NCBI RefSeq assembly: GCF_009914755.1
Contig: NC_060947.1
Strand: one strand, 5' to 3'
DNA length: 64,000 nucleotides
From: the human T2T-CHM13v2.0 reference genome, Homo sapiens
This document shows, piece after piece, positions 9,041 to 64,000 of this stretch. The notes beneath the pieces are model-generated. The model did no database searches. It was not told where the DNA came from and saw nothing but the letters and a program-made list of their open reading frames with translations. The position numbers and the translations under genes are program-made. Every line of letters begins with the position of its first letter. Within the stretch, counting starts at the first letter, position 1.

Positions 9041-11416
9041 TTTATTTTATTTTATTTTATTATTATTATACTTTAAGTTTTAGGGTACATGTGCACAATG
9101 TACAGGTTAGTTACATATGTATACATGTGCCATGCTGGTGTGCTGCACCCATTAACTTGTCATTTAGCATTAGGTATATCTCCTAAAGCTATCCCTCCCC
9201 TCTCCCCCCACCCCACAACAGTCCCCAGAGTGTGATGTTCCCCTTCCTGTGTCCATGTGTTCTCATTGTTCAATTCCCACCTATGAGTGAGAATATGCGG
9301 TGTTTGGTTTTTTGTTCTTGCGATAGTTTACTGAGAATGATGATTTCCAATTTCATCCATGTCCCTACAAAGGACATGAACTCATTGTTTTTTATGGCTG
9401 CGTAGTATTCCATGGTGCATATGGGCCACATTTTCTTAATCCAGTCTATCATTGTTGGACATTTGGGTTGGTTCCAAGTCCTTGCTATTGGGAATAGTGC
9501 CGCAATAAACATACGTGTGCATGTGTCTTTATAGCAGCATGATTTATAGTCCTTTGGGTATATACCCAGTAATGGGAGGGCTGGGTCAAATGGTATTTCT
9601 AGTTCTAGATCCCTGAGGAATCGCCACACTGACTTCCACAATGGTTGAACTAGTTTACAGTCCCACCAACAGTGTAAGTGTTCCTATTTCTCCACATCCT
9701 CTCCAGCACCTGTTGTTTCCTGACTTTTGAATGATCGCCATTGTAACTGGTGTGAGATGGTATCTCATTGTGGTTTTGATTTGCATTTCTCTGATGGCCA
9801 GTGATGGTGAGCATTTTTTCATGTGTTTTTTGGCTGCATAAATGTCTTCTTTTGAGAAGTGTCTGTTCATGTCCTTCGCCCACTTTTTGATGGGGTTGTT
9901 TGTTTTTTTCTTGTAAATTTGTTGGAGTTCATTGTAGATTCTGGATATTAGCCCTTTGTCAGATGAGTAGGTTGCGAAAATTTTCTCCCATTTTGTAGGT
10001 TGCCTGTTCACTCTGATGGTAGTTTCTTTTGCTGTGCAGAAGCTCTTTAGTTTAATTAGATCCCATTTGTCAATTTTGTCTTTTGTTGCCATTGCTTTTG
10101 GTGTTTTAGACATGAAGTCCTTGCCCATGCCTATGTCCTGAATGGTAATGCCTAGGTTTTCTTCTAGCGTTTTTATGGTTTTAGGTCTAACGTTTAAGTC
10201 TTTAATCCAGCTTGAATTAATTTTTGTATAAGGTGTAAGGAAGGGATCCAGTTTCAGCTTTCCACATATGGCTAGCCAGTTTTCCCAGCACCATTTATTA
10301 AATGGGGAATCCTTTCCCCATTTCATGTTTTTCTCAGGTTTGTCAAAGATCAGATAGTTGTAGATATGCGGTGTTATTTCTGAGGGCTCTGTTCTGTTCC
10401 ATTGATCTATATTTCTGTTTTGGTACCAGTACCATGCTGTTTTGGTTACTGTAGCCTTGTAGTATAGTTTGAAGTCAGGTAGCGTGATGCCTCCAGCTTT
10501 GTTCTTTTGGCTTAGGATTGACTTGGCCATGCGGGCTCTTTTTTGGTTCTATATGAACTTTAAAGTAGTTTTTTTTTTCCAATTCTGTGAAGAAAGTCAT
10601 TGGTAGCTTGATGGTGATGGCATTGAATCTATAAATTACCTTGGGCAGTATGGCCATTTTCATGATACTGATTCTTCCTACCCATGAGCATGGAATGTTC
10701 TTCCATTTGTTTGTATCCTCTTTTATTTCATTGAGCAGTGGTTTGTAGTTCTCCTTGAAGAGGTCCTTCATGTCCCTTGTAAGTTGGATTCCTAGGTATT
10801 TTATTTTCTTTGAAGCAATTGTGAATGGGAGTTCACTCATGATTTGGCTGTTTGTCTGTTATTGGTGTATAAGAATGCTTCTGATTTTTGTACATTGATT
10901 TTGTATCCTGAGACTTTGCTGAAGTTGCTTATCAGCTTAAGGGGATTTTGGGCTGAGACAATGGGGTTTTCTAGATATATAATCATGTCATCTGCAAACA
11001 GGGACAATTTTGTTTCCTCTTTTCCTAACTGAATACCCTTTATTTCCTTCTCCTGCCTAATTGCCGTGGCCAGAACTTCCAACACTATGTTGAATAGGAG
11101 TGGTGAGAGAGGGCATCCCTGTCTTGTGCCAGTTTTCAGAGGGAATGCTTCCAGTTTTTGCCCATTCAGTATGATATTGGCTGTGGGTTTGTCATAGATA
11201 GCTCTTATTATTTTGAGATATGTCCCATCAATACCTAATTTATTGAGAGTTTTTAGCATGAAGGGTTGTTGAATTTTGTCAAAGGCCTTTTCTGCATCTA
11301 TTGAGATAATCATGTGGTTTTTGTCGTTGGTTCTGTTTATATGCTGGATTACATTTATTGATTTGCGTATATTGAACCAGCCTTGCATCCCAGGGATGAA
11401 GCCCACTTGACCATGG
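9041..11416 (-). mobile_element. L1 copy A: 5'-truncated L1PA3-like element, ORF2 broken by frameshifts
   Basis: ORFs 10837..11502, 10475..10840, 9655..10530 and 9270..9641 are consecutive pieces of ORF2 (RT motif SLFADDM, C-terminus ...IGGN). Frameshifts near 10848, 10570 and 9676. T-rich tail at 9041-9070; no clear TSD. Confidence 0.97.
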
Positions 11417-11534
11417 AGAAAAACTCTACGAATTAATCTAGCTGTTGGGTAAAATCTACTTATTTTTAACATCATCTCTCCTCTTCTAAGACCTGTATCC
11501 ACCTCTTGCTACCCACTGCTGTCAATATTTATTT

Positions 11535-63400: not shown

Positions 63401-64000
63401 TCCTGGATTCACTGATTTTTTGAAGAGTTTTTGTGTCTCTATCTCTTTCAGTTCTGCTCTGATCTTAGTTATTTCTTGCCTTCTGCTAGCTTTTCAATTT
63501 GTTTGCTCTTGCTCCTCTAGTTCATTTAATTGTGATGTTAGGGTGTCAATTTTAGATCTTTCTTGCTTTCTCTTGTGGGCATTTAGTGCTATAAATTTCC
63601 CTCTACACACTGCTCTGAATGTGTCCCAGAGATTCTGGTATGTTGTGTCTTTGTTCTCATTGGTTTCAAAGAACATCTTTATTTCTGCCTTCATTTCGTT
63701 ACATACCCAGTAGTCATTCAGGAGCAGGTTGTTCAGTTTCCATGTAGTTGATCAGTTTTGAGTGAGTTTCTTAATCCTGAGTTCTAGTTTGATTGCACTG
63801 TGGTCTGAGAGACAGTTTGTTATAATTTCTGTTCTTTTACATTTGCTGAGGAGTGCTTTACTTCCAACTATGTGGTCAATTTTGGAATAAGTGTGGTGTG
63901 GTACTGATGAGAAGAAAGTATATTCTGTTGATTTGGGGTGGAGAGTTCTGTAGATGTCTATTAGGTCCACTTGGTGCAGAGCTGAGTTCAATTCCTGGAT
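60456..64000 (-). mobile_element. L1 copy D: L1PA5-7-like, ORF2 from the end of the endonuclease domain to the 3' UTR, continuing beyond the window
   Basis: ORFs 63752..63991 (EN motifs HHTYSKIDH, SDHSAIKLE), 63494..63694, 63000..63206, 61804..62709 and 60673..61731. Older-type 3' UTR (taacaaacctg, ccctagaactt). Confidence 0.97.

What the first reader, a model, noticed from the sequence alone, without database searches (positions are those of the whole stretch)
9041..64000. Four neighbouring L1s of different ages share rare variants in a non-tree-like network, suggesting local L1-to-L1 gene conversion
Seen: the 3' UTRs place B as PA2-type, A and C as PA3/4-type, and D as PA5-7-type, so these are independent insertions. 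Yet non-CpG variants are shared pairwise. A+B: 9491/18351, 9578/18438, 9729/18591, 9743/18605, 10210/19072. A+B+C: ELQQ (9924/18786/43976). A+C: SAQNPL (10943/42957) and ASKKIK (10806/43098). A+D: MKWGK (10325/61730) and cctaaCtg (11029/62425). C+D: KLHPF (43652/61653), tacTaaaat (43675/61630), tgctgTtat (44368/60937) and a shared stop. Where the other copies cover a site, they show the usual base. A+C, A+D and C+D sharing cannot all arise on one tree. Inference: short patches have been repeatedly copied between L1s lying within 10-55 kb, in both direct and inverted orientation, so the locus holds a private pool of L1 alleles. Calling the variants rare rests on my memory of L1PA consensus sequences.
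Basis: partly seen in the sequence, partly recalled or inferred. Interest (0 to 1): 0.8.

Follow-up and report, generated by a model that had tools for sequence, protein, structure and literature searches.

The report
Neighbouring L1 copies share private variants
Several separately inserted L1 retrotransposon fragments in a 300 kb stretch of the human X chromosome carry combinations of rare base changes found nowhere else in the genome, which is best explained by short patches of sequence being copied between nearby L1s.

Summary
The observation largely holds. All 13 coordinate pairs or triples I checked are homologous, and the cited peptides exist. 11 of the 14 cited variants are rare among 57 L1 copies taken from elsewhere in the genome.

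Exhaustive whole-genome pattern counts:
- A+B pair 9491G+9578G: only A and B.
- C+D pair "KLHPF"+"tacTaaaat": only C, D and a further L1, "F", at chrX:10.30 Mb.
- A second D+F pair: only D and F.
- A+C pair: A, C and one chr8 copy.
- A+D "MKWGK": 6 copies.
- Control, 563A+661T (C+D): 45 copies on 20 contigs, so it marks a subfamily.

"ELQQ" and 9729G are also common.

A and B differ at 3'UTR sites that vary commonly among copies, yet they are identical over 286 bp. Every other copy differs from them by at least 5 bases there.

Best reading: short-patch ectopic gene conversion between nearby L1s. This is firm for A-B, good for D-to-C, and open for A-C and D-F, which could be sister copies of minor source lineages. 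No ortholog test was possible.

The process is a known kind, documented for neighbouring Alus. This is a new L1 example with unusually long reach.

The parts
9030..11416 (-). L1 copy A, 2.4 kb 5'-truncated 3' portion (ORF2 3' part plus 3'UTR, A-rich tail at the low-coordinate end)
   Evidence: Best genome-wide identity 95-97%.
15745..16329 (-). L1 copy E (15745-16205) plus an older 117 bp L1 3'-end piece (16212-16329), both inside one 16 bp target-site duplication. No rare sharing with the other copies.
17893..19219 (-). L1 copy B, 1.3 kb, younger 3'UTR type, flanked by the target-site duplication GAAATTTTC
   Evidence: Best genome-wide identity 98%.
41598..44891 (+). L1 copy C, 3.3 kb, flanked by the target-site duplication GGGTTACAGGTAAA
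   Evidence: Best genome-wide identity 97%.
60407..64000 (-). L1 copy D, the oldest of the four. It aligns to F as far as 63787 and probably continues past the window end.
   Evidence: Best genome-wide identity 94%.
9482..9767 (-). A side of the A/B shared tract (B side 18342-18629). There are 0 substitutions in 286 aligned bases. It carries 9491G, 9578G and 9743G plus 9729G and 9736C.
   Evidence: The pair 9491G+9578G is found only in A and B in the whole genome.
18342..18629 (-). B side of the A/B shared tract
10210..10210 (-). Second A/B shared rare base (B 19072), bounded by A-B differences at 10168 and 10219, so the patch is at most about 50 bp
   Evidence: 0/57 external copies
43649..43679 (+). 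C side of the 31-mer that carries both 'tacTaaaat' and 'KLHPF' variants (D side 61626-61656). C lacks D's states at the flanking alignment columns 1231 and 1356/1366, so the patch is at most 124 bp.
   Evidence: The 31-mer occurs 3 times genome-wide: C, D and F.
61626..61656 (-). D side of the same 31-mer
44270..44368 (+). Stretch of C carrying the states 563A, 578A and 661T (D side 60937-61035). All five copies with C's 3'UTR type lack them, and 563A is in 0 and 661T in 1 of 57 external copies.
   Evidence: The haplotype is dispersed genome-wide with 45 matches, so D is only the nearest possible donor.
10806..10943 (-). A+C shared pair (C 43098 and 42957), with 7 A-C differences between the two sites
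   Evidence: Genome-wide carriers: A, C and chr8:112.63 Mb.
10325..10325 (-). A+D shared 'MKWGK' base (D 61730). Further A+D sites are 9102/60506 and 11029/62425.
   Evidence: The 26-mer occurs 6 times genome-wide.
42293..42295 (+). Stop codon TAA shared by C and D, where the majority of external copies reads CAA

Best explanation
The window holds at least five separately inserted, 5'-truncated L1PA fragments of different ages. After insertion, short stretches of tens to a few hundred bases were copied from one L1 to a nearby L1. The mechanism would be non-allelic (ectopic) gene conversion, meaning homology-directed repair of a break in one copy using a neighbouring copy as template.

This happened between directly oriented copies (A and B, 8.9 kb apart) and between inverted ones (D to C, 15.5 kb apart). 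It carried the donor's private mutations into the recipient.

Shown: the sharing, the mosaic structure and the genome-wide exclusivity. Inferred: the copying mechanism, its direction and its timing. The A/B tract has 0 differences in 286 bp, which I estimate means an event within roughly the last 5 million years.
For: (1) Whole-genome exact pattern counts. The pair 9491G+9578G occurs in A and B only. The 31-mer with 1258A+1281G occurs only in C, D and F, all within chrX:10.30-10.60 Mb. The pair 3107T+3186A occurs in D and F only. The pair 1843T+1986G occurs in A, C and one chr8 copy.

(2) The method does find dispersed carriers when a haplotype is subfamily-level: 563A+661T gave 45 matches on 20 contigs.

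(3) A-B is a mosaic. The two differ at 18 of 421 sites in alignment columns 60-510, including commonly variable 3'UTR sites where A matches C and D and B matches E and the majority. They differ at 0 of 286 sites in columns 511-799 and at 14 of 590 after that. For both A and B, the next closest of the 61 copies compared has 5 differences in that tract, and the median is 8.

(4) C carries D's states at columns 563/578/661 and 1252/1258/1281. It does not carry D's commonly variable states lying between or beside them (768, 859, 903, 1009, 1026, 1112, 1231, 1366).

(5) In the 57-copy sample, the local partners share the most rare variants with B and C, tie for top with A, and rank fourth and fifth for D. 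A-B share 3, A-D 3, C-D 4 and A-C 2. Among external copies the counts for A are 41 with 0, 12 with 1 and 4 with 2. For B they are 50 with 0 and 7 with 1. For C they are 47 with 0, 8 with 1 and 2 with 2.

(6) External pairs that share 4-5 rare variants (L043/L048, L018/L022, L023/L025) lie on different chromosomes. That is what retrotransposition from a shared source produces.

(7) Separate insertion is shown by target-site duplications for B, C and E. F's 1.66 kb 3' flank has no homology to the window beyond Alu pieces.
Against: There is no direct evidence of a pre-conversion state, because no orthologous or population sequence could be examined.

The run of identity between A and B is not exceptional on its own (P about 0.03, rank 71 of 1711 pairs).

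The low C-D divergence in the two patches is not distinctive. D differs from C at 8 of 511 sites there, but from other copies at 10-12, with a median of 15.

A-C has a third carrier on chr8 and 7 differences between the two shared sites. D and F share commonly variable states and private variants along 2.6 kb. Both patterns fit sister copies from one source.

Alignment column 769 is shared by C and D while the adjacent column 768 is not.

The external sample was chosen as the best matches to A and B plus three of D's best matches. It therefore under-represents D's subfamily. That made 563A look rare when it is not.
Confidence: 0.62

Rival explanations
1. The sharing copies are sister insertions from the same minor, short-lived L1 source lineages (A with C, D with F, A with the copy at chrX:10.388 Mb) that happened to land near each other. 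No DNA was exchanged after insertion.
For: D and F agree at nearly all commonly variable sites and share private variants spread over 2.6 kb. A and C have the same 3'UTR type, and their pair haplotype also occurs on chr8. Minor lineages exist: unlinked external pairs share 4-5 rare variants.
Against: Retrotransposed sisters are expected anywhere in 3.1 Gb, and the external sister pairs are on different chromosomes. Several independent cases all lying within 9-300 kb is very improbable. This reading cannot explain A-B, which have different 3'UTR types with an identical private tract. It also cannot explain C, which has D's states only in patches.
Confidence: 0.2
2. The shared bases are independent parallel mutations at mutable sites in a very large repeat family.
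For: Each single variant recurs elsewhere. 1258A alone and 1281G alone are each seen in several unlinked copies (11 and 6 of the 18 sampled). The MKWGK 26-mer occurs in 4 other places. 9491G also occurs in a chr4 copy.
Against: The sites are not CpG, and many of the changes are transversions. Combinations of two variants are exclusive to neighbours. Four of the six pairs among A-D share at least 2 rare variants, against 41 of all 1711 pairs.
Confidence: 0.06
3. The copies are related by DNA-level duplication of an L1-containing segment, or the sharing is an assembly or polishing artefact.
For: No result from any call favours this. It is listed because it is the usual alternative for similar neighbouring repeats.
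Against: Distinct target-site duplications and flanks for B, C and E. No flank homology in the window self-comparison or for F. The copies are only 94-97% identical overall, far too diverged for read cross-talk.
Confidence: 0.03

Closest known systems
Non-allelic gene conversion between neighbouring Alu elements (Aleshin and Zhi 2010, known to me only as cited in passages of PMC6598467 and PMC8230782)
   Same: Dispersed retrotransposon copies that inserted separately become locally alike at non-diagnostic positions. The effect is stronger for close neighbours, and hotspots are reported on the sex chromosomes.
   Different: Here the elements are L1 fragments of 1.3 to over 3.3 kb, not 300 bp Alus. 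Sharing is seen at 9, 16, 32 and 51 kb, and possibly at 160-300 kb. The cited Alu effect is described as acting within about 10 kb.
Interlocus gene conversion in human segmental duplications (PMC3790853 and PMC4467073, seen only as search listings with the start of the abstract)
   Same: Short one-way transfers between paralogous sequences on one chromosome produce mosaic similarity and trees that disagree.
   Different: The partners here are not duplicates of one locus. They are separate insertions of a repeat family, only 94-97% identical.
L1PA subfamily and minor source-lineage structure (recalled background, not taken from any call)
   Same: Copies from one source share diagnostic bases. 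This explains 563A+661T, ELQQ and 9729G.
   Different: Lineage mates are scattered over the genome. The haplotypes here are confined to one neighbourhood, and two of them cut across commonly variable sites.

Membership tests
5'-truncated L1 insertions made by target-primed reverse transcription | Common 3' end with an A-rich tail and variable 5' ends | tested here: met
   All copies start within about 40 nt of the same L1 position next to a T-rich or A-rich run. Their lengths range from 0.45 kb to over 3.3 kb.
5'-truncated L1 insertions made by target-primed reverse transcription | Target-site duplications flank each copy | tested here: inconclusive
   Clear for B, C and E. Only a 7 nt candidate for A. 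D's 5' end lies outside the window.
Non-allelic (ectopic) gene conversion between dispersed repeats | Mosaic structure: a tract identical to the partner, flanked by sites where the two differ at commonly variable positions | tested here: met
   A-B differences are 18/421, then 0/286, then 14/590. The partner is an outlier among the 61 copies compared. For C-D the mosaic is seen in site states only, not in identity.
Non-allelic (ectopic) gene conversion between dispersed repeats | Transferred variants are private to donor and recipient and absent from other family members | tested here: met
   Exact genome-wide counts of 2, 3 and 2 carriers for three combinations, all local. A dispersed control gave 45. 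A-C has one outside carrier.
Non-allelic (ectopic) gene conversion between dispersed repeats | The orthologous locus in an outgroup, or another haplotype, shows the pre-conversion state | not testable with these tools
   Only this one human assembly is held. No primate or pangenome sequence was available.
Non-allelic (ectopic) gene conversion between dispersed repeats | Frequency falls with distance between the partners | tested here: inconclusive
   All partners found lie within 300 kb.

The most novel reading that the evidence does not exclude
L1 copies across a domain of at least 300 kb of Xp22 (chrX:10.30-10.60 Mb), in both orientations and from different subfamilies, exchange short patches often enough to hold a private pool of L1 alleles. 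Ectopic conversion between dispersed L1s would then act over distances about thirty times the roughly 10 kb range described for Alus. It would measurably distort L1 age and subfamily calls.
Probability: 0.3. Interest if true: 0.65.

Novelty: new member of a known kind. Interest (0 to 1): 0.5.

Why it matters
Ages and subfamily assignments of L1 copies assume that each copy mutates independently after insertion. Local patch exchange breaks that assumption. It also marks places where dispersed repeats pair for repair, the same pairing that leads to deletions and inversions.

The pattern-count test used here asks whether a pair of rare variants is confined to neighbours. It is cheap on a complete assembly and could be run on all L1 pairs to measure the reach and rate of ectopic conversion.

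Tried and rejected
(1) I first read the copies as sharing a 5' end with variable 3' ends, which would have been very odd. Reading the flanks showed that the shared end is the A-tailed 3' end on the opposite strand. The copies are ordinary 5'-truncated L1s.

(2) Longest mismatch-free run as a conversion test. A-C has the top run (404 columns), but A and C each share an almost equal run with an unlinked chr3 copy, L004. A-B ranks only 71 of 1711. I rejected this as a discriminating statistic.

(3) Low C-D divergence inside the two patches. D is similarly close to many copies in those stretches, so this is not evidence.

(4) Rarity judged from the 57-copy sample alone. It failed for 563A, so I relied on whole-genome pattern counts where I had them.

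(5) Segmental duplication of D and F. Rejected because there is no 3'-flank homology.

The A+D sites 9102 and 11029 were not counted genome-wide.

(8) I did not run GENECONV or PHI, and I did not compare against Dfam consensus sequences because none was held.

(9) Literature. Three full-text searches listed reviews of gene conversion between transposable elements that centre on Alus. I saw no paper describing a local L1-to-L1 conversion network. That is weak evidence that none exists, because subscription journals are not searched.

Full report
**What is there**

The window (chrX:10540001-10604000 of the complete human assembly) is dense in L1 3' portions. A self-comparison and reading of the flanks give these copies:
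- an old copy at 3-1587 (+)
- a small inverted-plus-direct 3' fragment at 8380-8645
- A at 9030-11416 (-)
- E at 15745-16329 (-)
- B at 17893-19219 (-)
- C at 41598-44891 (+)
- D at 60407 to at least 63787 (-)

I first misread the copies as sharing a 5' end. The T-rich or A-rich runs at that end, and the target-site duplications, show it is the A-tailed 3' end. These are ordinary 5'-truncated insertions.

Target-site duplications prove separate insertion for B, C and E. A's is unclear. D runs off the window.

The age order is supported by best genome-wide identity: B 98%, A 95-97%, C 97%, D 94%. It is also supported by 3'UTR sites that vary commonly among copies, where A groups with C and D, and B groups with E and the younger copies.

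**Checking the observation**

I aligned A-E and the old copy with 54 copies from other places in the genome. These were the best matches to A and to B, with duplicates removed. I then added three of the best matches to D.

All 13 coordinate pairs or triples that I checked fall in one alignment column. The five cited peptides occur in exactly the copies named.

Among the 57 external copies the cited variants occur as follows:

| Variant | Carriers among external copies |
|---|---|
| 9491G | 0/57 |
| 9578G | 0/57 |
| 9743G | 2/57 |
| 10210G | 0/57 |
| SAQNPL | 0/51 |
| ASKKIK | 1/53 |
| MKWGK | 1/57 |
| cctaaCtg | 1/48 |
| KLHPF | 0/57 |
| tacTaaaat | 0/57 |
| tgctgTtat | 0/57 |
| 9729G | 10/57 |
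| ELQQ | 13/57 |

The last two are common. The shared stop is C 42293 TAA with D, where 42 external copies read CAA. The base change that makes it is carried by 2 external copies.

**Is the sharing more than chance?**

Within the sample, the local partners share the most rare variants with B and C and tie for top with A. For D they rank fourth and fifth, behind three copies of D's own type. The local counts are A-B 3, A-D 3, C-D 4 and A-C 2.

Sharing with external copies is mostly 0 or 1:
- A: 41 copies with 0, 12 with 1, 4 with 2
- B: 50 with 0, 7 with 1
- C: 47 with 0, 8 with 1, 2 with 2

Over all 1711 pairs, only 41 share two or more rare variants. Four of the six pairs among A-D do.

The sample is biased. 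It was chosen for likeness to A and B, so D's subfamily is poorly covered. I therefore turned to exact pattern counts over the whole 3.1 Gb genome.

**Whole-genome counts**

| Combination | Copies sharing it locally | Genome-wide matches |
|---|---|---|
| 9491G+9578G | A+B | 2: A and B |
| 31-mer with 1258A+1281G | C+D | 3: C, D and F |
| 3107T+3186A | D+F | 2: D and F |
| 1843T+1986G | A+C | 3: A, C and chr8:112.63 Mb |
| MKWGK 26-mer | A+D | 6: A, D, chr1, chr6, chr11, chrX:40.97 Mb |
| 563A+661T | C+D | 45 matches on 20 contigs |

F is a further L1 at chrX:10302541, 237 kb before the window. The last row shows that 563A+661T is a subfamily-level state. It also shows that the method detects dispersed carriers when they exist.

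Single variants do recur elsewhere. Of 18 sampled near-matches to C's 69-mer, 11 carried 1258A alone and 6 carried 1281G alone. The information therefore lies in the combinations.

**Mosaic structure**

A and B differ at 18 of 421 sites in alignment columns 60-510, including commonly variable 3'UTR sites. They differ at 0 of 286 sites in columns 511-799 (A 9482-9767, B 18342-18629), and at 14 of 590 sites after that. In that tract the next closest of the 61 copies compared differs from A or from B at 5 sites, and the median is 8.

A search with B's tract found no other copy in the genome without substitutions.

A second shared private base (10210/19072) sits in a stretch of at most about 50 bp between A-B differences.

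C carries D's states at columns 563, 578, 661 and at 1252, 1258, 1281. It does not carry D's commonly variable states at 768, 859, 903, 1009, 1026, 1112, 1231 or 1366. All five copies with C's 3'UTR type lack 563A, 578A and 661T, and no external copy has 563A, 1258A or 1281G.

Two arguments that I tried do not hold:
- The A-B identical run alone is unexceptional (rank 71 of 1711).
- C-D divergence inside the patches (8 of 511) is not much lower than D's divergence from other copies there (10-12, median 15).

**The more distant partners**

F (chrX:10300400-10303900, + strand) is 95.5% identical to C and 94.4% to D. It agrees with D at nearly all commonly variable sites, and shares with it 1258A, 1281G, 1602A, 3107T and 3186A. 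Its 1.66 kb 3' flank has no homology to the window beyond Alu pieces. D and F are therefore not a segmental duplication.

H (chrX:10388025, about 160 kb from A) is the best external match to the A/B tract. It carries 9491G and 9743G but not 9578G, 9729G, 9736C or 10210G.

**Interpretation**

Copies that share a source are expected anywhere in the genome. The external pairs that share 4-5 rare variants are on different chromosomes. Here every partner lies within 9-300 kb, in several independent cases. Some local process links these copies.

For A-B and C-D the sharing cuts across commonly variable sites, so post-insertion patch copying (ectopic gene conversion) is the best explanation. It works between direct copies (A-B) and inverted copies (C-D). 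I put this at about 0.6.

For D-F and A-C, sister copies of a minor source lineage fit the pattern of sites equally well. What remains unexplained on that reading is why they sit together.

Parallel mutation, duplication and assembly error are unlikely, for the reasons given under the rival explanations.

**Comparison with what is known**

Passages I read in two papers (PMC6598467, PMC8230782) describe non-allelic conversion between neighbouring Alus. They cite a range of about 10 kb and hotspots on the sex chromosomes. PMC8230782 states that most work on transposable-element conversion has concerned Alus.

Interlocus conversion in segmental duplications is also established. I saw those papers only as search listings with abstract starts.

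This finding is therefore a new L1 example of a known process. Its possible novelty is reach: 16-51 kb clearly, and 160-300 kb possibly.

**What is missing**

Conversion is inferred, not shown. The decisive test is the state of the orthologous loci in other primates and in other human haplotypes, and I could not make it.

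Noticed in passing
chrX:10300400-10303900 (window coordinates about -239600 to -236100), locus L084: L1 copy F, on the + strand and of the same type as D. 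It shares with D two variant combinations found nowhere else in the genome, although the two lie 300 kb apart in opposite orientation and have unrelated 3' flanks.
   Followed up: partly
chrX:10388025-10388800 (window coordinates about -151975), loci L082 and L086: L1 copy H, about 1.3 kb by its position in the alignment (only columns 511 to about 1290 were fetched). It carries two of the four rare A/B bases (9491G and 9743G) but not the others. It was the best external match to the A/B tract.
   Followed up: partly
window 15745-16329: Composite insertion inside a single 16 bp target-site duplication (ATAAATACCCATTCTT). A 450 bp L1 3' end with its tail is followed by a second, much more diverged 117 bp L1 3' end (77-85% identity to the others). 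The two look as if they were inserted as one chimeric template.
   Followed up: no
window 8380-8645: Small L1 3' fragment made of a 170 bp tailed piece (8476-8645, sense on +) joined to an inverted 102 bp piece from just upstream in L1 (8380-8481). This is the layout expected from twin priming.
   Followed up: no
window 9491, 9578, 9743, 10210 (B 18351, 18438, 18605, 19072): All four rare A/B shared changes are to G on the + strand (three T to G, one C to G). That is an odd spectrum for four random mutations, and I have no explanation for it.
   Followed up: no
window 3-1587: A much older L1 3' portion (about 81% identical to the others) carries 563A and 661T. This fits those being ancestral states of older L1 types.
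   Followed up: partly
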